A stretch of 64,000 nt of DNA. Source: Patescibacteria group bacterium (GTDB taxonomy: Bacteria; Patescibacteriota; UBA1384; XYA2-FULL-43-10). Below, piece after piece: positions 11,316-39,943 of the stretch. The stretch's first letter is position 1. Each line of letters opens with the position of its first letter. The position numbers and the translations under genes were made by a program. Below the pieces are notes generated by a model. It had not been told where the DNA came from and searched no databases. It saw only the letters and a list, made by a program, of their open reading frames with translations. The stretch covers positions 74,074 through 138,073 of the forward strand of contig JBAYVT010000003.1 in the NCBI GenBank assembly GCA_041674405.1, in the 5' to 3' direction.

Positions 11316-12491
11316 TTACCCCGCCTTCATGGCGCGGGCGATCCGGTCCAATCCCTCCTCGATCTCCAGATCGTTGTACGTAAGGCTCATCCGGAAGTAG
11401 CCTTCCCCGCCCGCGCCGAACGCCGAGCCCGGGGTGAGGACGACGTGCGCCGTTTCCACCAGATGCTCACAGAACTCCGCACTGGTCGAGAACCCATCCG
11501 GGATCGGCGCCCAGATGTAAGGAGTCGCCTGAGGCGGTTCGATGCTCCAGCCCAGCGAGTTCAAGGTACCGACGACGAGGTCCCGGCGCTGGCCATAGAC
11601 GAAACAGATGTCCTCGCAGGCCCGCCGATATTCTTTGAGCACCCGGGCACCGGCGAACTGGATGAAACGAGGGGTCCCATTGTCGGTGTTGCCCTTGTAG
11701 CGCTTCAGGTACGACAACACCTCTGGGTTGCCGACGGCCGCGCCGATCCGCCACCCGGTCATGTTAAACCACTTGCTGTGAGAGATGATCTCCACAGCGA
11801 CCTCAGACGCCCCTAGTACCTCCAGGATGCTCGGCTGCCGGATGTTGCCCAGATTCACCAGGCTGTAGGCGGCGTCGTGGACGACAAGGAGCTTGTGCTC
11901 CTTTGCGAATTCGACGGCCTCAGCGAAGAAGTCGAGGCCAGCCACCGCAGTGGTGGGGTTGTTGGGGTAGTTGAGCCAGAGGATCTTCGCTTTCTGGCAA
12001 ATCACCCCCTCGATACTACCCAGGTCGGGGAGCCAGTACGGCGGCTCGAGCTTCATGTGGTAGGTGTTCGCCCCGAACATGTGCTGGGCGATCTCGTAGG
12101 TAGGGTATCCGGGGTCAGGCACAATCCCGAGATCCAGCGGATTCAGGAAGGCCCCAGCGAGCTGGACGATCGCCTCTTTGGACCCACTCGTCCGCAAGAT
12201 CTGGTTGTCCTCGAGCGTGACGCCGAAGTAGCTCTGGTAGAACCGGCACACCTCGGAGTCGAAGTCCGTGACAGGCATGTCATCCCCGTAGCGAAACCGA
12301 TCGGGATCCGTGACATCGTTGGCGGCACGGACCATCTCATCCACAGCACAAAGCGGAGTGGGCATGTCGGGGTCGCCGATTCCGAACGAGACGACATGGA
12401 CACCGCTCGCCTTGAGAGTGTTGATCTTCTCCCGCAGCGAGGCAAACGGATATGGCGGCAATGATGCGAGACGGCCTGAAGGCTCAAGCAT
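11316..12491 (-). CDS. class I/II PLP-dependent aminotransferase (LL-diaminopimelate/Ala aminotransferase-like)
   Basis: N-terminal LPPYPFASL...SFGIGDPDMPTP. PLP-lysine motif SHSKWFNMTGWRIG. About 62% GC island in the AT-rich backbone. Confidence 0.8.
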   Translation of the reverse strand: MLEPSGRLASLPPYPFASLREKINTLKASGVHVVSFGIGDPDMPTPLCAVDEMVRAANDVTDPDRFRYGDDMPVTDFDSEVCRFYQSYFGVTLEDNQILRTSGSKEAIVQLAGAFLNPLDLGIVPDPGYPTYEIAQHMFGANTYHMKLEPPYWLPDLGSIEGVICQKAKILWLNYPNNPTTAVAGLDFFAEAVEFAKEHKLLVVHDAAYSLVNLGNIRQPSILEVLGASEVAVEIISHSKWFNMTGWRIGAAVGNPEVLSYLKRYKGNTDNGTPRFIQFAGARVLKEYRRACEDICFVYGQRRDLVVGTLNSLGWSIEPPQATPYIWAPIPDGFSTSAEFCEHLVETAHVVLTPGSAFGAGGEGYFRMSLTYNDLEIEEGLDRIARAMKAG

Positions 12492-12761
12492 GAACGAAAC
12501 TCCTCCTGGAATGTGATATGCGTCCCGAGCGAGATAAAATTAACACATTTTATCATTTTTGTCTAGTCAAATAGCAGCATGATTTGTGAATTTCAATACC
12601 AAGCGATCTTTACAGAACGCTTCATTTTTGCTAAAATTCTTGTGTGTTTGAGAGTTATTCCCTCCGTCTCCAGCTTGCTGGAGCCGAGAGTTACCCGATA
12701 GCTCCCGTCTCCAAGCAAAACTTGGAGCCGAGGTCTCGGCTTGATATAATCAAGACGGACA

Positions 12762-13019
12762 ATGGCAGACCATTTTATTTACATTTTAGTAAGTAAAAAC
12801 GCCCCCAAAACTTATATAGGTGTAACATCAGATATCGAAAAGAGAATATCTGAACACAATTCTGGCTCAAATGCTTACACCAGAAAATATAAGCCTTGGA
12901 AGCTTTTTTATTCCGAAAAATTTGATGATAGATCAGTGGCATTAAAAAGAGAAATTTATCTGAAATCGCACGCAGGGCGGAACTTCATAAAAAAGCTTTT
13001 TCAAAATATTCCCCGATAG
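12762..13019 (+). CDS. GIY-YIG nuclease superfamily protein (small stand-alone, UPF0213-like)
   Basis: YILVSKNAPKTYIGVTSDIEKRISEHNSG GIY-YIG motif. 85 aa. The last 10 nt overlap the tRNA-Asn 5' end. Confidence 0.75.
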   Translation: MADHFIYILVSKNAPKTYIGVTSDIEKRISEHNSGSNAYTRKYKPWKLFYSEKFDDRSVALKREIYLKSHAGRNFIKKLFQNIPR

Positions 13020-13084
13020 CTCAATGGCAGAGCGCTTCGCTGTTAACGAAGATGTTGCTGGTTCGAGTCCAGCTCGGGGAGCCA
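13010..13084 (+). tRNA. tRNA-Asn (anticodon GTT)
   Basis: Cloverleaf read by hand: acceptor tccccga/tcgggga, anticodon loop CTGTTAA, T-arm ggttcgagtcc, discriminator G and encoded CCA. Confidence 0.85.
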
Positions 13085-13221
13085 AGAAAAAAGATTGATT
13101 GTGTAATCAGTCTTTTTTCTTTGTTCAGTAGAATGGACTCGAACCAAGGATGGGGTCGGGAAACATGGGTTTCCCGCTGAGGAAAATACTAAAAACCGAG
13201 GGTTTTTAGAGTGGTTCATAT

Positions 13222-13247
13222 GTCCAGCTCGGGGGGCCAAAGAAAAA
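13222..13247 (+). repeat. decayed direct repeat of the tRNA-Asn 3' end (gtccagctcgggg.gccaa.gaaaaa)
   Basis: 13-nt identity with tRNA 13067-13079 plus a similar A-rich tail, about 150 bp downstream. Resembles an att-site scar. Confidence 0.5.
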
Positions 13248-13255
13248 TGACACTT

Positions 13256-14107
13256 TTATGATTTTGATCCTTGAAATGTCCCACTGCAGCGTCCCGAGCT
13301 CCAGGTGCCGGAGACTTTGCTACCGGAAAAAGTCATATTTACGACTGTTGGGGTGGAGCCAGCGCTAAGCGTCTCAGCCGCCTTACCATTCGAATCGATT
13401 TTTGCATTGCCGCCCCAAGGATTTTGAACCTCGCCGCCAGTGACATAGAAGGCTGTCAGCTCGACTGACGAGTCACAATTCGGCTTTTGCATTGTAGTTT
13501 GGTAATAACCGTCCCAGTTGTTGCTGATTGGCCCGCCAGGCAAGTCGGTCGTTACATTGGTGACAGTGTGGTGAATGTACGGCCAGATAAAGACAAAAAA
13601 GACGACGACTAAAATTATGAACATAGCAGCGACTGCACAGCCACTAGCAGCTGTCTGCTTCTTTGCAGCCGGCGGAGACATTTCTGCGGCAGAATTCTCT
13701 TCTTTTTTGTTAGATTCTTTCATCTTGAGATTCTTTTTGTTCTGTTTCACTAAGGCCCAGATTCCAAGGATAAAAATTGCCAAGCACAACAAGGTTATTC
13801 CGAGAACTAATTCGGTAGCATTTTTAGTTTTATTGCCAGTGAAAAAATAGGCGGTTGTCCCGCTCAGGGCCAAAAAAGAAATGATGATCAAAAAAATTAA
13901 AAGGCAGGAAAGACAACCTGTGTTTTTCGCCGGAGGAGCAACCGGTTTAATGTCCTTGTCTTTATTATCACCAGGGACGTCGCCAATCAGATTGCCGCAT
14001 TTTGGGCAGAACTTATCTTTCGCCTCGACTTTCTCGCCGCATTTAGAACAAAACATTCCCCCTCCGAAATTTTTAGGTGATCTGACAACATCACAATTAT
14101 ACCACAA
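13256..14107 (-). CDS. hypothetical membrane protein with N-terminal zinc ribbon
   Basis: CSKCGEKVEAKDKFCPKCGN zinc ribbon, then 3-4 TM helices and a C-terminal extracellular domain. Confidence 0.5.
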   Translation of the reverse strand: MWYNCDVVRSPKNFGGGMFCSKCGEKVEAKDKFCPKCGNLIGDVPGDNKDKDIKPVAPPAKNTGCLSCLLIFLIIISFLALSGTTAYFFTGNKTKNATELVLGITLLCLAIFILGIWALVKQNKKNLKMKESNKKEENSAAEMSPPAAKKQTAASGCAVAAMFIILVVVFFVFIWPYIHHTVTNVTTDLPGGPISNNWDGYYQTTMQKPNCDSSVELTAFYVTGGEVQNPWGGNAKIDSNGKAAETLSAGSTPTVVNMTFSGSKVSGTWSSGRCSGTFQGSKS

Positions 14108-14157
14108 GTTGCGGAAACTTATGTTTTGCTGCCTTATTATAGATCAATTTCAAATTC

Positions 14158-15387
14158 TTACTTTAGGCTTTCTGATGCTGCGGTGATCAGATCGGAAATA
14201 AGTTTTTCTCCGGTTGTCTGGCCGCGATTCGCCTGCATCGCCGCCCAATCAGCATTCAGAGTTTCATCGCCCATCGCTGTAATCAGCGCTCCGGCACGAT
14301 CAAAATTATTTTTCTCGCGATTATGCTCGCCAAAAATCAGCGACATTGCCTCAAGTTTGTTGGCAACGCCGGTCATCTTCTCATCTTTGGACGCAAGGCT
14401 TTTTTCAAGATCGGCTTGCGCCATTACAAGATTATTTTCTGCATTCTTTTTGTCATTGGTTAAATTTCTATTTAGGATAAATAGCCAGGCGGAGACTGCG
14501 ATGAAAATTAACATTAGAGATGCGGCTATCATGCCAAAAGCTCCAATGCCGGATTTTTTTCGTAAGTATAATAACCAGTATAAAAATAAGGCGATAAGAA
14601 TGAGCAGAACCGCTCCGGCAATATAATATATAAGATATGGGTTTTCGGAAGCTGAATTATTCCCCACATTTGCCGTGGTAGTTTCGACACCTGTTTGACT
14701 GCTGTCGTCTGTCGCGGTCGTCGCTGCCGTCGATGCAGCGCCATTGTTTTGTGATGTGCCAGAAGCTGAATTTGCCGATTGTCCGCTTCCACTCGGAGCA
14801 GCCTGGCTTCCGGTTCCTGAAGAACCGCTGCTACCTGTTGTGTCTCCGCCATTTGCGATATTCTCTGTAAAATTTACGGTTACTGAAAGAGTCAATGACG
14901 GCGCACCGGGAAGCAATGAACTTGCTGTGTAGGTGACAATTTTTTCTCCCGGGGTTGATGACTTCAGAGTGAACTCTCCTGTCCCAGAAATTAGATTGTA
15001 GTCCGGCAGGATTCCACCGCTGCCGCCCAATGGGTTTGGAGACACATTGTTGCCCGAACCGGAAATCGAAAGGGTCATTTTATTTGAATAAGCCGCTGCT
15101 CGGCATAGCTGGCCATCGTCAGTATCAACCGTTGCCGGCAATGGAGTCTGCGGCGATGCCCCATCACTACAGTCAATCTCAAAAGGAGTTTTCTGGGTAT
15201 AGTAAGCGCCATACCAAAAATTAATCGTGTCGCTTCCATCTGCAACTGCCGTAGTTTTGTTGTAGGTAAGTGTGATTTTTGTAGCATCGACTGAGCTCAC
15301 AGTTTCCATTGCCGACACTTGGTTTACAATTAGAAACGGCAAACAGAAAGTTGCAAATAATGCTCCTAAAACTAGAACTTTTTTCAT
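14158..15387 (-). CDS. secreted/surface protein (signal peptide, Gly/Ser/Thr-rich linker, TM, C-terminal coiled coil)
   Basis: N-terminal MKKVLVLGALFATFCLPFLIVNQVSA. Low-complexity S/G/T segment. Internal TM. Confidence 0.5.
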   Translation of the reverse strand: MKKVLVLGALFATFCLPFLIVNQVSAMETVSSVDATKITLTYNKTTAVADGSDTINFWYGAYYTQKTPFEIDCSDGASPQTPLPATVDTDDGQLCRAAAYSNKMTLSISGSGNNVSPNPLGGSGGILPDYNLISGTGEFTLKSSTPGEKIVTYTASSLLPGAPSLTLSVTVNFTENIANGGDTTGSSGSSGTGSQAAPSGSGQSANSASGTSQNNGAASTAATTATDDSSQTGVETTTANVGNNSASENPYLIYYIAGAVLLILIALFLYWLLYLRKKSGIGAFGMIAASLMLIFIAVSAWLFILNRNLTNDKKNAENNLVMAQADLEKSLASKDEKMTGVANKLEAMSLIFGEHNREKNNFDRAGALITAMGDETLNADWAAMQANRGQTTGEKLISDLITAASESLK

Positions 15388-15445
15388 ATTTCCTCCCTCC
15401 TTGTTCGATTTACATTGGTGCGTCTAATCCTCCGAGCTGGTAATA

Positions 15446-16810
15446 TTAGCTCTGGCTTTTCGGCGGTGTTGGAGGCGCAGGTGCTGGCCCGACATTTGCT
15501 GCAGTCGGAGTTGGCGGTACGGCCGTCGGTTTCTTTTTCCTCGTAGCAAGAATAATGATCAATATCAATATTATTAAGATAATTGCGCCACCGATGATTC
15601 CCGCCCACAACCAGTTCATCACCCATCCTGATTTTACTGAAATTTTGTTTGATCCGACTGCCGTTGTGAATGTCAGTTGTTTGAATCCCTTGGTCACTAT
15701 AAGCTCGTTAGAGACAAACTTCTTTGTTTTGTAACCAATTCCCTCCATCGCCGCCTTGATTGCAGTCAGATCGTTGTCAGCTACATTCCTGCCAAGAATA
15801 TAGATTAGTGTGCGTCCCTTCTGGGAAGCGATTTTAGCCTTGTCATCATAGACCTTCTTTATTACAGGAGTTACGACAGCATCAGTATTAGCTCCTTCGC
15901 CGGTTGGGACTACTGGAACGACATCGGGATAGCTGGTACCACCCCCGCCGACATCGCCTCCTGTACCTCCGGCGCCAGCGGTTGCGCTAATAACCATGTT
16001 GTATTCCGAAGCCGCAGTTTCACAGCCTGAATTAATATCACAGTTGATGCCAACATAGACTACTTGATCAGACGAAAGATCAACGCTGACTGTCTTAATT
16101 TCGCCAGCGTTTCCTGCCATTTCATATCCAAGTTCCGTGCGATTGCTGTCAAAAACTTTTACTGTCGGCACAGCCTTGGTATCCGGAGTAAGCTTGACAG
16201 AAAAAGGTCCCGCCTTGGCAGAAACAGCATAATAATCGTCGGTATCGACAGACGAATAGTATCCTGTGTAAGTCCCCGGATTAAGAGACATGGCTGATGT
16301 GATTGCTTGACCGGCGTCAGTGGTCGATCCGGCGTCGAAGCGGTCGGTTAGGGAAACTTCAAACGTGCCTGATTCCGTTCCCCAGGTGTCATCGGAAAGG
16401 CGGATGTAGAAAGTATGTGTGCTCTTGGTAGAATTGGCGAGTGCAGCGACTGTGATCGGAGCAGGGGCGTCTTCAAATTCCGAGACCATTGACTCTTTAT
16501 CATCGGAAAATAACTCGATTGTATTCAGTGTTCCATACTGCGCATTTTCAGTCAGAACTTTGAATGTTCCAGTGACCTTCAGCTCCTGTCCGGCTTTAAC
16601 GCTAATTGAGTAAAAATGTTTTTCGTTCTCCACCAGTCTACCGACGGTGTAGCTGCCGGCAGCAATTCCAACCGCGGTATCAATCGTACTGCCGCCGCTT
16701 GGCAAACTTGCGGCTTGAACCTTGGAAAAAGGAATGAAGATAGTCATTAAGGATAAAACCAAAAGAGATGCACAAATTTTGCCAAAGAATTGCGCAGTGT
16801 TTTTTATCAT
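15446..16810 (-). CDS. surface protein with signal peptide, repeated beta-sandwich (PPC-like) modules, C-terminal TM anchor and Pro-rich tail
   Basis: Signal peptide. DxxDxYY-type motifs (DTDDYYAVSAKAG). C-terminal TM followed by PTPTAANVGPAPAPPTPPK. Confidence 0.5.
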   Translation of the reverse strand: MIKNTAQFFGKICASLLVLSLMTIFIPFSKVQAASLPSGGSTIDTAVGIAAGSYTVGRLVENEKHFYSISVKAGQELKVTGTFKVLTENAQYGTLNTIELFSDDKESMVSEFEDAPAPITVAALANSTKSTHTFYIRLSDDTWGTESGTFEVSLTDRFDAGSTTDAGQAITSAMSLNPGTYTGYYSSVDTDDYYAVSAKAGPFSVKLTPDTKAVPTVKVFDSNRTELGYEMAGNAGEIKTVSVDLSSDQVVYVGINCDINSGCETAASEYNMVISATAGAGGTGGDVGGGGTSYPDVVPVVPTGEGANTDAVVTPVIKKVYDDKAKIASQKGRTLIYILGRNVADNDLTAIKAAMEGIGYKTKKFVSNELIVTKGFKQLTFTTAVGSNKISVKSGWVMNWLWAGIIGGAIILIILILIIILATRKKKPTAVPPTPTAANVGPAPAPPTPPKSQS

Positions 16811-16835
16811 TTTCCCTCCTTAAAAATTATTTAAC

Positions 16836-17441
16836 TTAGAAATACCAAAAAATCCGCTGTACGCCAGAGCGCAAAAGCTCTTTGAAAATTTCCGGATTCA
16901 TCATATTGACCATAACGAGAGCGACTATAATAATTATCACCGAAAGCCACTTGGTGTAGGGCCCGGCTGTACGAAACAAAAGAATTAGTGATAAAACAGC
17001 CATCAATGTCGGTCCTAAGATCTTGATGTCGCCGAGGGGGACGTACTGGCCTCCGGCATAGATGGAATCCAAATTGAGATATTGTCCGAGATCATAGCTT
17101 ACGCCGAAAGCAATAAAAATTATTTCCAGGACGATTACGACTGCCAGCGCCCACGAAGCGAATGTTGTTGACTCTCCCTTGGTTCGGTAAATTTCATATC
17201 CGACGACTGGCAACATGAAAAGCGACAGAATGAGCACGCTGTGAGTGGCAATCCCGACCAGCAATCCGATTATTGCCCAGACCGTGAGAATGCTACAAAT
17301 CATCGCGGGAGAAATTTTATCTTTGGTTTTCTTTTTCTCTGTATCGGGTGGGCTTGCCTGGAAGTCTGCACTCTTTTGATATTCAATCTCCGTACCCTCC
17401 TTGGCAACGGGTGCCGGCCCGTCTGATCCGCCTCCTATCAT
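16836..17441 (-). CDS. hypothetical polytopic membrane protein
   Basis: Five to six predicted TM helices and a basic N-terminus. Confidence 0.45.
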   Translation of the reverse strand: MIGGGSDGPAPVAKEGTEIEYQKSADFQASPPDTEKKKTKDKISPAMICSILTVWAIIGLLVGIATHSVLILSLFMLPVVGYEIYRTKGESTTFASWALAVVIVLEIIFIAFGVSYDLGQYLNLDSIYAGGQYVPLGDIKILGPTLMAVLSLILLFRTAGPYTKWLSVIIIIVALVMVNMMNPEIFKELLRSGVQRIFWYF

Positions 17442-17450
17442 TGGTCCTCC

Positions 17451-18401
17451 TTAATTTAACTTAGAAAAAAGCTTCTCGAATATTTTCTCAACTTCATCTT
17501 TGTTCAAAAATCCCTCGGCTCCTATCGTACTTGTTTTCGGGCTGACCTCCGTCCGGTGATATGTAGCACCTTCAACTCGTTCGCTGATTTTTTTCGAATC
17601 AAACTGGCTTACCGATTCGCAAGGAGTGGCGCCATCCGGTAATGATTCGTAGCTATAGAGCAAAGAGCCGGTAATCAAATAATTCTTCACTCGAACTGCA
17701 ATACAAAAACGTTTTTTCTCGTCTTGGATCAAGAATACTGCTGGTCGGCCGAGCACCGTTCCTTGCTCATTCTGAAGCCCCGATTTTTCTCTTTCCGCCT
17801 TTATTTTCGGGGCCGAGCTCTTCATCAGGGATTGCATCTTGTCCATTTGAGCTTTTTGCGTCGGAGTCATTTGAGCTTGAACTACTTTGCTATTCAAAAC
17901 TTTTTCGAGATCCATACCGGCCGGTGCACCGGGGATTTGCGAGTTATATAAATTACCTTCCGCCGTGTCACTTTGATTCTTCATAGCTTCTCCGGCGGTT
18001 TTTTCGTCTGGATACTCGACGACAATTATATCTGCTACCATGTCGTACTCTTCAGGATGAGATTTGTTCATCTCTTGCCTTAGTTTCTCAATGGTCTCGA
18101 CGGTGACTCCCGGCATGTACCCAGAGGCTGCGCAAGCTTTCATCCCTTTGTAAAAATCCGCCAGATTTCCACGGGTCATTTCTTTCGAATATTTTACTCC
18201 GGTGGCCGCAACCGGTTCTGGCCCGCCAGAAATCAAGCCGCCATCCACCAGAGTGCGATCCATCTTAATCTCGGGGCTAAAATGACCGACAGAAACGACG
18301 GTCTGATTTACTGAAGATGATTTTTTGAACGATTTCCATTGGCTACCGGACAGGGCATCATCGATGGCTGAAATGGTTTTGTTAGATTTTTTGGCTTTCA
18401 T
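17451..18401 (-). CDS. hypothetical protein
   Basis: ORF with compositionally normal protein. No motif recognised. Confidence 0.45.
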   Translation of the reverse strand: MKAKKSNKTISAIDDALSGSQWKSFKKSSSVNQTVVSVGHFSPEIKMDRTLVDGGLISGGPEPVAATGVKYSKEMTRGNLADFYKGMKACAASGYMPGVTVETIEKLRQEMNKSHPEEYDMVADIIVVEYPDEKTAGEAMKNQSDTAEGNLYNSQIPGAPAGMDLEKVLNSKVVQAQMTPTQKAQMDKMQSLMKSSAPKIKAEREKSGLQNEQGTVLGRPAVFLIQDEKKRFCIAVRVKNYLITGSLLYSYESLPDGATPCESVSQFDSKKISERVEGATYHRTEVSPKTSTIGAEGFLNKDEVEKIFEKLFSKLN

Positions 18402-18595
18402 CGCGAGCTCATCATAAATTTCTTGCTACAATTAGCATTGTACCACTCCGCTACAATAATAAAAGTAGAGTAAAGCACCTTCTTGTGGTCGTGCAAATTT
18501 ATTTTAGCGAGAGATGAAAGAGAAAATGGTAATGTAATTTTGCGTTTATGATAATCAGCATTGTAGCACCACCAATGCAAGCGTATATTTAAAGC

Positions 18596-18958
18596 ATGAA
18601 AAAATATGCAACGGTTGAGGATTATATTTCTTCATACGATCCTGAAACTCGGGAGAAATTGGAATTGATGCGGAAAATTATTAAAGAAGCCGCACCGGAA
18701 GCCGTCGAATCGATCAGCTACGGCATGCCTGGTTATAAACTGAACGGAAAGCAGTTTCTCTACTTCGGCGGATTTCCTACCCACATCGGTTTTTACCCCC
18801 TGCCGTGTGCGATCAGAGAATTTTCCCACGACATTAAGAAATTCAAACACTCCAAGGGGGCAATTCAATTTTCCCTTGCTGAACCTTTGCCGATAGGGTT
18901 AATAAAAAGAATGGTTAAGTATCGAATAAGTGAACTGGAAGATAATAACTCGTGTTAA
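18596..18958 (+). CDS. DUF1801 (YdhG-like) domain protein
   Basis: MKKYATVEDYISSYDPETREKLELMRKIIKEAAPEAVESISYGMPGYKLNGKQFLYFGGF resembles the YdhG/DUF1801 family. Confidence 0.55.
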   Translation: MKKYATVEDYISSYDPETREKLELMRKIIKEAAPEAVESISYGMPGYKLNGKQFLYFGGFPTHIGFYPLPCAIREFSHDIKKFKHSKGAIQFSLAEPLPIGLIKRMVKYRISELEDNNSC

Positions 18959-39852: not shown

Positions 39853-39943
39853 TGGCGGTGGGAGAGGGATTCGAACCCTCGAGACCCTTGCGAGCCTACA
39901 CGCTTTCCAAGCGTGCGCACTAGACCAACTATGCGATCCCACC
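39853..39943 (-). tRNA. tRNA-Ser (anticodon GGA), class II with long variable arm
   Basis: Reverse-complement cloverleaf read by hand: acceptor ggtggga/tcccacc, anticodon loop TTGGAAA, 18-nt variable arm, T-arm gggttcgaatccc, discriminator G and CCA. Confidence 0.8.

What the first reader, a model, noticed from the sequence alone, without database searches (positions are those of the whole stretch)
13010..13247. tRNA-Asn with a decayed direct repeat of its 3' end 150 bp downstream: att-site scar
The 3' part of tRNA-Asn (GTCCAGCTCGGGGAGCCAAGAAAAAA, 13067-13092) recurs at 13222-13247 (GTCCAGCTCGGGGGGCCAAAGAAAAAT), including a GGTTC..T-arm remnant just upstream. Direct duplication of a tRNA 3' end is the hallmark of tyrosine-integrase-mediated integration at tRNA genes. 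Only about 135 bp lie between the copies, so this looks like the remnant of an excised or deleted element. The high-GC aminotransferase island lies directly on the other side of the tRNA.
Basis: seen in the sequence. Interest (0 to 1): 0.6.

Follow-up and report, generated by a model that had tools for sequence, protein, structure and literature searches.

The report
Displaced tRNA-Asn 3' end: insertion scar
A short, slightly decayed second copy of the last third of a tRNA-Asn gene lies 137 bp downstream of the real gene in an uncultivated Patescibacteria genome; it is most likely the ordinary footprint of foreign DNA that once inserted at the tRNA's 3' end, while the more unusual feature is a small GIY-YIG nuclease gene that has rebuilt the 5' end of the same tRNA.

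Summary
tRNA-Asn(GTT) is at 13010-13084. Its T-loop-to-CCA segment plus about 10 nt of trailer (13059-13096) recurs at 13212-13250 (33/39 aligned columns; core 17/18). There is no other copy in 64 kb, none in shuffles, and two independent assemblies carry it. It is not a second tRNA or a detectable pseudogene, and the 127-137 bp between the copies encodes nothing.

Similarity stops abruptly in the T-loop. Displaced copies in two relatives (L005, twice; L170) and tRNA-Asn fragments in phage contigs stop at or near the same place. This fits a Campbell-type insertion at the T-loop/3'-end sublocation followed by internal deletion.

No integrase, tyrosine or other, was found here or at any related tRNA-Asn, and no intact element was recovered. 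"Tyrosine-integrase att scar" is therefore plausible but unproven. "Excised" is wrong, because excision would remove the duplicate.

Unexpectedly, the 85-aa GIY-YIG gene that ends inside the tRNA is preceded by a displaced copy of the tRNA 5' end carrying a conserved structured insert. The same layout recurs in relatives at tRNA-Asn, tRNA-Arg and tRNA-Gln. I found no description of it.

The 3' scar is ordinary. The 5' element deserves follow-up.

The parts
13010..13084 (+). tRNA-Asn (GTT), intact and functional-looking, with encoded CCA.
   Evidence: ARAGORN. Rfam RF00005 scores 70.3 bits, E=4.9e-15. The sequence is identical to the tRNA-Asn of relative L170.
13079..13126 (+). Terminator-like hairpin. 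It begins inside the tRNA 3' end (GAGCCAAGAAAAAAGATTGATT / AATCAGTCTTTTTTCTTTGTTC) and is followed by a T-run. Under the insertion model this is insert-derived DNA that now terminates the tRNA.
   Evidence: the repeat finder I1: 22-nt arms, 86% complementary. RNAfold pairs 13086-13100 with 13105-13119. Relatives have the same design of a hairpin that includes the CCA end.
13134..13146 (-). Exact 13-nt inverted copy of the T-arm (TGGACTCGAACCA). It is complementary to the tRNA T-arm (13059-13071) and nearly so to the remnant T-arm. It remains unexplained.
   Evidence: the repeat finder I3, 100% complementary. The centroid fold pairs it with 13212-13226. The low-threshold ARAGORN call on this strand is not credible.
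13157..13176 (.). Hairpin A of the spacer (CGGGAAAC-ATGG-GTTTCCCG).
   Evidence: RNAfold. It is unique in the window and absent from viral contigs.
13189..13209 (.). Hairpin B of the spacer (CTAAAAACC-GAG-GGTTTTTAG). It lies within the 30-mer (13181-13210) at which the Logan assembly graph branches.
   Evidence: RNAfold. The Logan contigs overlap exactly on 13181-13210. It is unique in the window and absent from viral contigs.
13212..13250 (+). Displaced, slightly decayed copy of tRNA-Asn from the T-arm to CCA plus about 10 nt of trailer. This is the finding. Under the insertion model it is the original 3' end and trailer of the gene (attR-like).
   Evidence: The core 13222-13239 matches 17/18, and similarity ends abruptly at tRNA position 50.
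13256..14056 (-). Convergent zinc-ribbon membrane protein gene. It marks the right boundary of the feature, and its stop codon lies 6 nt after the repeat.
   Evidence: The gene is called in the public record. Pfam Zn_Ribbon_1. Homologs are 33-49% identical in other Patescibacteria.
12762..13019 (+). 85-aa stand-alone GIY-YIG nuclease gene (UPF0213-like). Its ATG lies in a copy of the tRNA D-loop, and its TAG stop is tRNA nucleotides 8-10.
   Evidence: Pfam PF01541, E=7e-20. PDB relatives 1ywl and 1zg2, both UPF0213 proteins. The overlap with the tRNA is read from the sequence.
12694..12704 (+). Displaced copy of tRNA-Asn positions 3-13 (CCCGATAGCTC), upstream of the GIY-YIG gene.
   Evidence: On its own this is weak (11 nt). 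The homologous position in L005, L170, L171, L173, L174 and L181/L182 carries 12-22 nt exact copies of the local tRNA 5' end, and L172 and L178/L179 carry near-exact ones.
12705..12759 (+). Structured insert ('cloverleaf'): CCGTC | TCCAAG-CAAAA-CTTGGA | GCCGAG-GT-CTCGGC | TTGAT-ATA-ATCAA | GACGG. It sits in the D-loop of the displaced 5' fragment. It is followed by CAATGGCAGA (12760-12769, tRNA positions 13-22), which supplies the start codon.
   Evidence: The region is conserved in L170, L172, L173 and L181-L184 (blastn E from 1e-11 to 0.06). In L178 and L179 it is seen only by reading the sequence. In the consensus fold the closing stem and central hairpin are conserved, and the outer hairpins change sequence but stay hairpins. 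No Rfam family matches.
12664..12688 (+). Truncated second copy of the 5' part of the structured insert (CCGTCTCCAGCTTGCTGGAGCCGAG). It may be the remains of an older tandem unit.
   Evidence: Read from the sequence. Compare the two complete tandem units in L173.

Best explanation
The second copy (13212-13250) is the original 3' end and trailer of the tRNA-Asn gene, pushed about 130 bp downstream when foreign DNA inserted by a Campbell-type single crossover within the T-loop-to-3'-end part of the gene. The incoming DNA carried its own copy of that tRNA segment. The gene therefore stayed intact, and its present 3' end and terminator hairpin (13085-13126) come from the insert. Nearly all of the insert, including whatever recombinase gene it had, was later lost by internal deletion. 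What remains is a 127-bp non-coding, hairpin-rich remnant between an attL-like site (inside the tRNA) and a decaying attR-like site.

Shown: the partial duplication, its sharp T-loop boundary, the lack of coding capacity, and parallel displaced 3' ends in relatives. Inferred: that a site-specific recombinase did it, most likely an integrase of a phage or island, tyrosine or serine type unknown; the direction (which copy is original); and the later deletion.
For: 1. The duplication is significant and partial. Similarity runs from tRNA position 50 to 10 nt past CCA and then stops dead. A whole-gene duplicate decaying uniformly would not give 17/18 identity next to none.
2. The left boundary recurs. 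Exact identity starts at (A)GTCC in the window and in the distal L005 copy. A weaker middle L005 copy (p=0.026) also contains GTCC. In L170 the significant alignment starts later, at GCTCGGGG, and a GTCCAG 29 nt upstream is seen by eye only. Two IMG/VR contigs carry tRNA-Asn fragments that start at AAGTCCAGC (L132, L152). In L152 the fragment abuts a large serine recombinase gene.
3. Of 41 viral contigs with this 18-mer, 13 carry only a 3' fragment of tRNA-Asn, of attP/attR type. This tRNA end is therefore a much-used attachment sequence.
4. In L005 a 250-aa alpha/beta-hydrolase gene lies downstream of the tRNA, followed by two displaced 3' ends in series, as expected from repeated insertions.
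5. In L005 the tRNA part of the distal repeat is 19/19 identical, while the adjoining trailer is only about 67% identical. L170 shows the same trend less sharply (12/13 in the tRNA part). This is expected if the proximal trailer is foreign but homologous.
6. Two strains that are 94% identical (L178, L179) lose synteny 38 nt after tRNA-Asn. The downstream flank is therefore a rearrangement hot spot in this clade.
7. About 3% of unrelated tRNA-Asn loci (L024, L034, L067, L116 of about 120) show the same kind of short-range 3' fragment.
Against: No recombinase gene or fragment was found. Six-frame peptides of 13070-13275 hit no Pfam family at E<=1. tblastn with an E. coli XerD sequence, written from memory, finds nothing in the 64-kb window (best E=0.39). 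The genes downstream of tRNA-Asn in the related loci that were scanned or carry precomputed Pfam annotation include no integrase.

The spacer has no homolog in any fetched locus or in IMG/VR, so its foreign origin is unproven. No empty-site or occupied-site variant was recovered.

The window and L170 have identical tRNAs and both carry a remnant, but their spacers are unrelated. Either the events are independent or the scar is old and has been reshuffled.

The inverted T-arm copy at 13134-13146 is not predicted by the model. Seven of ten related GIY-YIG/tRNA loci have no 3' remnant.
Confidence: 0.5

Rival explanations
1. By-product of the GIY-YIG element. The nuclease encoded immediately upstream cuts the tRNA-Asn gene. 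Repair from a donor that carries the element, an intact tRNA-Asn and donor flank was homologous on the left and illegitimate on the right. This left the recipient's 5' end upstream of the element (12694-12704) and its 3' end downstream (13212-13250).
For: The same locus has a displaced 5' fragment and a displaced 3' fragment flanking GIY-YIG, the tRNA, the terminator and the spacer. The three loci with significant 3' remnants all carry the GIY-YIG unit. A recurrent boundary could equally reflect a fixed cleavage site.
Against: The repeating unit of the element, seen as two identical tandem copies in L173 and as two different elements in series in L181/L182, contains only the tRNA 5' part, never the whole tRNA or its trailer. 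Seven of ten GIY-YIG/tRNA loci have no 3' remnant. The rate of 3' remnants is not clearly higher than in unrelated tRNA-Asn loci. The changes in the 5' remnant (A at position 2) and the 3' remnant (G at position 72) are not compensatory. In L005 the model would have to include a hydrolase gene in the cassette.
Confidence: 0.15
2. Campbell-type insertion by general (RecA-type) homologous recombination, not by an integrase. A circularised DNA fragment from a related Patescibacteria genome carried the tRNA-Asn 3' end and trailer, and it recombined with the resident gene.
For: The duplicated block includes 35-45 nt of diverged trailer or terminator in L005 and L170. The incoming DNA therefore looks like a piece of another bacterium's tRNA-Asn locus and not like a minimal phage attP. 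No integrase was found anywhere.
Against: Homology of 20-40 nt is short for RecA-dependent crossover. The recurrent left boundary in the T-loop is more naturally explained by a site-specific enzyme.
Confidence: 0.15
3. Decayed tandem duplicate of the whole tRNA-Asn gene (a pseudogene), of which only the 3' third is still recognisable.
For: Tandem tRNA-Asn copies do exist in other genomes (L021, L032, L125). The spacer upstream of the remnant has hairpins at roughly tRNA-like spacing.
Against: Infernal (tRNA model, E<=10) and ARAGORN find no second tRNA. ARAGORN predictions at a 70% threshold are structurally poor. Identity falls from 17/18 to background within a few bases, which uniform decay would not produce.
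Confidence: 0.1
4. A functional structured RNA or DNA element, such as a small RNA or processing signal, that mimics the tRNA T-arm and acceptor end.
For: The spacer plus remnant folds much better than shuffles (z=-3.5, 0/200). The inverted T-arm copy can pair with the remnant T-arm, enclosing two hairpins.
Against: No Rfam family matches. The spacer is not conserved even in L170, which has an identical tRNA. Most of the folding energy comes from a terminator and two simple hairpins.
Confidence: 0.05

Closest known systems
attL/attR duplication at tRNA genes by phage or island integrases, T-loop/3'-end sublocation (Williams 2002, Nucleic Acids Res, cited from my own knowledge)
   Same: There is a direct repeat of the tRNA 3' part in the same orientation. 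The intact gene is proximal and the fragment distal. The boundary lies in the T-loop, and identity extends a few nt past CCA.
   Different: No integrase and no cargo are present. Only 127 bp lie between the sites, and the distal copy has already mutated (one substitution, three small indels).
CIME-type remnants: att-flanked elements that have lost their recombination and transfer modules, as described for Streptococcus thermophilus ICESt1-related elements (from my own knowledge)
   Same: Two att-like sites flank DNA with no recombinase gene. Arrays of such remnants can build up by accretion, as L005 suggests.
   Different: CIMEs are kilobases long and can still be mobilised in cis by a related ICE. 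Here the insert is about 130 bp, one att-like copy is degenerate, and no cognate element is known.
Free-standing GIY-YIG homing endonuclease genes in tRNA regions, e.g. phage T4 SegB (PMC2330249). This concerns the neighbouring GIY-YIG unit, not the 3' repeat.
   Same: It is a GIY-YIG gene embedded in a tRNA gene context, with a patchy distribution and signs of repeated insertion.
   Different: The protein is only 85 aa, a UPF0213-type bare catalytic domain, with no DNA-binding domain. The unit is always flanked upstream by a displaced 5' part of the very tRNA it precedes, with a structured insert in the D-loop. It is chromosomal, in Patescibacteria.
[quoted passage not shown]
   Same: The phylum and the tRNA species are the same, and tRNA-Asn is a target of selfish elements.
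   Different: Rfam finds no group I intron in 12500-13700. The tRNA here is uninterrupted, and the extra DNA lies outside the gene.

Membership tests
Integrase-generated att duplication at a tRNA gene | Direct repeat of the tRNA 3' segment downstream of the intact gene, in the same orientation | tested here: met
   13059-13096 vs 13212-13250, alignment score 42 against a null maximum of 26.
Integrase-generated att duplication at a tRNA gene | Repeat boundary at a recognised sublocation (anticodon loop, T-loop or 3' end) | tested here: met
   Exact identity starts at the 3' side of the T-loop (GTCC). The distal L005 remnant and viral fragments L132/L152 start at the same place. A weaker L005 copy is compatible, and the significant L170 alignment starts later, at GCTCGGGG.
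Integrase-generated att duplication at a tRNA gene | Integrase gene (tyrosine or serine recombinase) next to one att site | tested here: not met
   Six-frame Pfam scan of 13070-13275 found no family. tblastn with XerD on the window gave best E=0.39. No integrase lies downstream of tRNA-Asn in the related loci scanned or annotated.
Integrase-generated att duplication at a tRNA gene | Occupied versus empty site among close relatives, or an intact cognate element elsewhere | tested here: inconclusive
   The metagenome scan found only L170 and L171 with this tRNA 3' end. L170 has its own, unrelated remnant, and L171 ends at the tRNA. Spacer pieces are absent from IMG/VR. The Logan graph branch at 13181-13210 hints at a variant.
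tRNA pseudogene (whole-gene tandem duplicate) | Residual similarity or cloverleaf over the full length of the tRNA | tested here: not met
   Infernal and ARAGORN find only one tRNA. The alignment stops at tRNA position 50.
Group I intron in a Patescibacteria tRNA-Asn | Group I ribozyme core interrupting the anticodon loop | tested here: not met
   No Rfam intron hit at E<=10 in 12500-13700, and the tRNA is contiguous.
Free-standing GIY-YIG homing endonuclease gene (for the neighbouring ORF 12762-13019) | GIY-YIG catalytic domain | tested here: met
   PF01541 at E=7e-20. There is only a weak N-terminal match to TIGR01453, the group I intron endonuclease family, below its cut-off.
Free-standing GIY-YIG homing endonuclease gene (for the neighbouring ORF 12762-13019) | C-terminal DNA-binding module that gives site specificity | tested here: not met
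   The protein is 85 aa, all of it nuclease domain. The nearest solved relatives are UPF0213 proteins of 96-107 aa.
Free-standing GIY-YIG homing endonuclease gene (for the neighbouring ORF 12762-13019) | Sporadic presence at a conserved target, with signs of repeated insertion | tested here: met
   Homologs sit immediately 5' of tRNA-Asn, tRNA-Arg(CCT) and tRNA-Gln(TTG). There are tandem or serial copies in L173 and L181. The unit is absent from about 120 other tRNA-Asn loci, including two Patescibacteria.
Free-standing GIY-YIG homing endonuclease gene (for the neighbouring ORF 12762-13019) | Cleavage of the element-free target allele | not testable with these tools
   This needs purified protein and tRNA-gene substrates.

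The most novel reading that the evidence does not exclude
The displaced 3' end and the displaced 5' end are two footprints of one process. A family of bare-domain (UPF0213-type) GIY-YIG elements invades tRNA genes of Patescibacteria and rebuilds the gene around itself. The nuclease break is repaired so that parts of the old tRNA are pushed outward on both sides. This would be a new class of tRNA-targeting mobile element. Its start codon is taken from the tRNA D-loop, and its stop codon lies inside the rebuilt tRNA.
Probability: 0.15. Interest if true: 0.75.

Novelty: new member of a known kind. Interest (0 to 1): 0.4.

Why it matters
On its own the 3' repeat matters little. It marks this tRNA-Asn as a past entry point for foreign DNA in a reduced, uncultivated Patescibacteria genome, and it shows that the tRNA's present terminator may be imported.

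Its value is mainly as a pointer. Re-examining it showed that the same tRNA gene is remodelled on its 5' side by a small GIY-YIG unit. That unit recurs in relatives next to three different tRNA species, always with a displaced 5' fragment of the cognate tRNA and a conserved structured insert.

If that unit is mobile, it would be a compact selfish element that exploits the most conserved sequences in a genome. It would also explain why standard annotation shows 'GIY-YIG nuclease family protein' genes abutting tRNAs in this phylum.

Tried and rejected
1. Second tRNA or pseudogene: ARAGORN at default and relaxed thresholds, and Infernal/Rfam at E<=10, gave nothing credible.
2. Integrase fragments in the spacer: none found by a six-frame Pfam scan. 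A crude XerD tblastn over the window also found nothing.
3. Spacer as a repeated element (MITE): pieces of the spacer are unique in the 64-kb window. They are absent from IMG/VR and have no homolog in about 180 fetched loci.
4. My first genome-contig scan was wasted on a pattern with one N too many. The corrected pattern was too general and returned mostly Acidobacteriota and Firmicutes tRNA-Asn loci. These were useful only as a background set.
5. The metagenome scan with the exact 3' end gave only two relatives.
7. The cloverleaf motif is absent from IMG/VR.
8. The other tRNA in the window (tRNA-Ser, 39853-39943) has no displaced fragments and no GIY-YIG gene.
9. Link to the high-GC aminotransferase: there is only a chance-level 16-nt similarity inside its coding region (E=0.44). 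Rejected.
10. Literature: no paper in the searchable library describes GIY-YIG genes abutting tRNA genes in Patescibacteria.

Full report
OBSERVATION

The window is part of ENA metagenome contig k141_137659 (152 kb). NCBI names its proteins 'Patescibacteria group bacterium'.

ARAGORN places tRNA-Asn(GTT) at 13010-13084 on the + strand, and the Rfam tRNA model scores 70.3 bits. The reported repeat is real:
- 13067-13092 and 13222-13247 match over 26 nt at 88% without gaps.
- The 18-mer GTCCAGCTCGGGGRGCCA occurs only at these two places in 64 kb, and never in 100 shuffles.
- With gaps the match runs from the T-arm (TGGTTC, 13212) through CCA and 10 nt of trailer to 13250. That is 33 of 39 columns, with a score of 42 against a shuffle maximum of 26.

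The independent Logan assembly of run SRR6484325 contains the same second copy. It is therefore not a MEGAHIT artefact.

ANATOMY

After the tRNA comes a terminator-like hairpin whose 5' arm includes the tRNA's own GAGCCA end (13079-13126). The features that follow are:
- an exact 13-nt inverted copy of the T-arm (13134-13146);
- two simple hairpins (13157-13176 and 13189-13209);
- the displaced T-arm/acceptor/CCA/trailer copy (13212-13250);
- six bases later, the stop codon of a convergent zinc-ribbon membrane protein gene (13256-14056).

The interval folds better than shuffles (z=-3.5) but matches no Rfam family. No six-frame peptide from it matches Pfam. Its pieces are unique in the window and absent from IMG/VR. 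It has no significant homolog in any locus I fetched.

WHAT THE COPY IS NOT

It is not a second tRNA. Infernal at E<=10 and ARAGORN at default settings see one gene only, and ARAGORN's 70%-threshold calls have broken acceptor stems and abnormal anticodon loops.

It is unlikely to be a uniformly decayed whole-gene duplicate. Identity is 17/18 in the core and vanishes upstream of tRNA position 50.

It is not related to the group I introns recently described in tRNA-Asn of this phylum (PMC13011429). The gene is uninterrupted and there is no intron hit.

RELATIVES

I reached relatives in three ways: through homologs of the downstream zinc-ribbon protein, through homologs of the upstream GIY-YIG protein, and through a metagenome scan for the tRNA. 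Of ten related GIY-YIG/tRNA loci with downstream sequence, three have a significant displaced 3' end: the window, L005 and L170.

L005:
- A 19-nt exact copy (AGTCCGACCTCGGGAGCCA) lies 971 nt downstream, beyond an alpha/beta-hydrolase gene.
- A weaker, more decayed copy with its own terminator lies in between (GTGTCCAAAACAGGGAGCCA; p=0.026).
- The distal copy's similarity continues for about 35 nt into the trailer at about 67% identity, whereas the tRNA part is 19/19.

L170:
- Its tRNA is identical to the window's.
- GCTCGGGGAACCA plus about 44 nt of diverged trailer lies 92 nt downstream.
- A GTCCAG lies 29 nt further upstream (by eye only), and the spacer is unrelated to the window's.

Exact identity begins at (A)GTCC, the 3' side of the T-loop, in the window and in the distal L005 copy. 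The other two copies are compatible with that boundary but do not establish it.

Two 94%-identical strains (L178, L179) lose synteny 38 nt after tRNA-Asn, right after its terminator.

OUTSIDE EVIDENCE

In IMG/VR the 18-mer occurs in 41 contigs. Twenty-eight are complete phage tRNA-Asn genes. Thirteen are 3' fragments only:
- Eleven start in the anticodon loop.
- Two (L132, L152) start at AAGTCCAGC, the same boundary as here.
- In L152 the fragment lies at the end of a large serine recombinase gene.

These phages infect other hosts, because their tRNA D-loops differ. They do show that this tRNA end is a common attachment sequence with this sublocation. Among about 120 unrelated tRNA-Asn loci, four (L024, L034, L067, L116) have a short-range 3' fragment, so the phenomenon is ordinary.

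INTERPRETATION

The best reading is a Campbell-type insertion with a crossover in the T-loop-to-3'-end segment, followed by loss of almost all the insert. The distal copy would be the original 3' end and trailer. The proximal trailer, including the terminator the tRNA now uses, would be imported.

The contrast between a perfect tRNA part and a diverged trailer in L005 fits this. So do the recurrent boundary and the serial remnants in L005.

What is missing is the enzyme. No integrase or fragment was found in the spacer or the window (a crude screen), nor downstream of tRNA-Asn in the relatives scanned. No intact element or empty site was recovered either.

I therefore give this 0.5 and leave the recombinase type open.

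A RecA-mediated version of the same event (0.15), a nuclease-repair origin (0.15), a decayed whole-gene duplicate (0.1) and a functional RNA (0.05) remain possible.

The 85-aa ORF at 12762-13019 is a bare GIY-YIG domain of the UPF0213 type. Its TAG stop is tRNA nucleotides 8-10. Upstream of it, in order, lie:
- CCCGATAGCTC (12694-12704), which is tRNA positions 3-13;
- a 55-nt insert that folds as a closing stem with three hairpins (12705-12759);
- CAATGGCAGA (12760-12769), which is tRNA positions 13-22 and contains the ORF's ATG.

Every homolog I could place (43-100% identity) ends within -23 to +14 nt of a tRNA start on the same strand. The tRNAs are:
- tRNA-Asn in L005, L170, L171, L172, L173 and L178-L182;
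- tRNA-Arg(CCT) in L174;
- tRNA-Gln(TTG) in L175-L177.

Each is preceded by a 5' pseudo-half of that same tRNA with a GC-rich structured insert in the D-loop. This is clear for tRNA-Asn and tRNA-Arg, and more diverged for tRNA-Gln.

There are two insert types:
- The 'cloverleaf' CCGTC...GCCGAGRTCTCGGC...GACGG. Its closing stem and central hairpin are conserved, and its outer hairpins vary.
- A 20-nt palindrome, CCTGCCTGCCGGYAGGCAGG. Here the pseudo-half runs on to the anticodon stem or loop (L005, and the second ORF of L181).
- L171 carries a different hairpin insert.

L173 has two identical tandem units. L181/L182 has one unit of each type in series. The window has a truncated extra copy of the insert at 12664-12688.

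None of about 120 other tRNA-Asn loci, including a Saccharibacteria and a Dojkabacteria genome, has the gene next to the tRNA. The window's tRNA-Ser lacks it too.

The repeating unit never includes the tRNA body or trailer. This is why I treat the 3' remnant as a separate event.

I found no description of this arrangement in the searchable literature. The nearest analogue is T4 SegB, a GIY-YIG homing endonuclease in a tRNA cluster (PMC2330249), but SegB has a DNA-binding domain and no tRNA-fragment flanks.

UNEXPLAINED

- The inverted T-arm copy at 13134-13146.
- The Logan assembly graph branches exactly at 13181-13210, inside the spacer. This may signal a population variant of the insert.

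VERDICT

The 3' repeat itself is ordinary. Interest is raised to moderate only by the GIY-YIG/tRNA architecture that it led to.

Noticed in passing
window 12664-13019; also L005 7416-7741, L170 (reverse strand) about 705-800, L171 908-1219, L173 4536-5224, L174 2764-3138, L175 2360-2673, L178 2105-2436, L181 1078-1712: A bare-domain GIY-YIG (UPF0213-like) gene always lies immediately 5' of a tRNA gene (Asn, Arg-CCT or Gln-TTG). It is preceded by a displaced 5' pseudo-half of that same tRNA, which carries a conserved structured insert in its D-loop. In the window the ORF's ATG comes from the D-loop copy and its TAG stop is tRNA nucleotides 8-10. Tandem or serial units occur in L173 and L181. 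This looks like an undescribed tRNA-targeting selfish unit.
   Followed up: partly
window 12705-12759: A 55-nt four-way-junction-like motif: CCGTC, hairpin 1, GCCGAGGTCTCGGC, hairpin 3, GACGG. It is conserved in sequence across six distinct relatives, with variable outer hairpins. It has no Rfam match and is absent from IMG/VR.
   Followed up: partly
window 13181-13210 (L002 start, L004 end): The Logan (k=31) assembly of SRR6484325 breaks this locus into two contigs that overlap by exactly 30 nt inside the spacer. This indicates a branch in the assembly graph, so another sequence in the sample shares this 30-mer.
   Followed up: no
window 13134-13146: An exact 13-nt inverted copy of the tRNA T-arm lies 62 nt after the original. 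It can pair with both the tRNA T-arm and the displaced T-arm. No model explains it.
   Followed up: partly
window 11316-12491: The aminotransferase gene has markedly higher GC than its surroundings (the 1-kb bins covering it are 0.49-0.54, against about 0.38-0.45 in most neighbouring bins). It may be a horizontal acquisition. No repeat or tRNA fragment links it to the tRNA-Asn.
   Followed up: no
window 13256-18958 vs L005 6001-7290: Gene order differs around the tRNA. In L005 the zinc-ribbon and DUF1801 genes lie upstream of GIY-YIG and tRNA-Asn on the same strand. In the window the zinc-ribbon gene is downstream and convergent. The tRNA-Asn region is therefore a rearrangement breakpoint between these lineages.
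   Followed up: no
L178 2516-2553 vs L179 4332-4369: Two strains that are 94% identical over 2.5 kb lose all similarity 38 nt after tRNA-Asn, directly after its terminator hairpin. The variable DNA beyond includes an HTH_3 gene in L179.
   Followed up: partly
L152 4284-4301: In an IMG/VR contig, a 19-nt tRNA-Asn 3' fragment (AGTCCAGCTCGGGGAGCCA) lies at the 3' end of a 537-aa large serine recombinase gene. It is probably an attP.
   Followed up: partly
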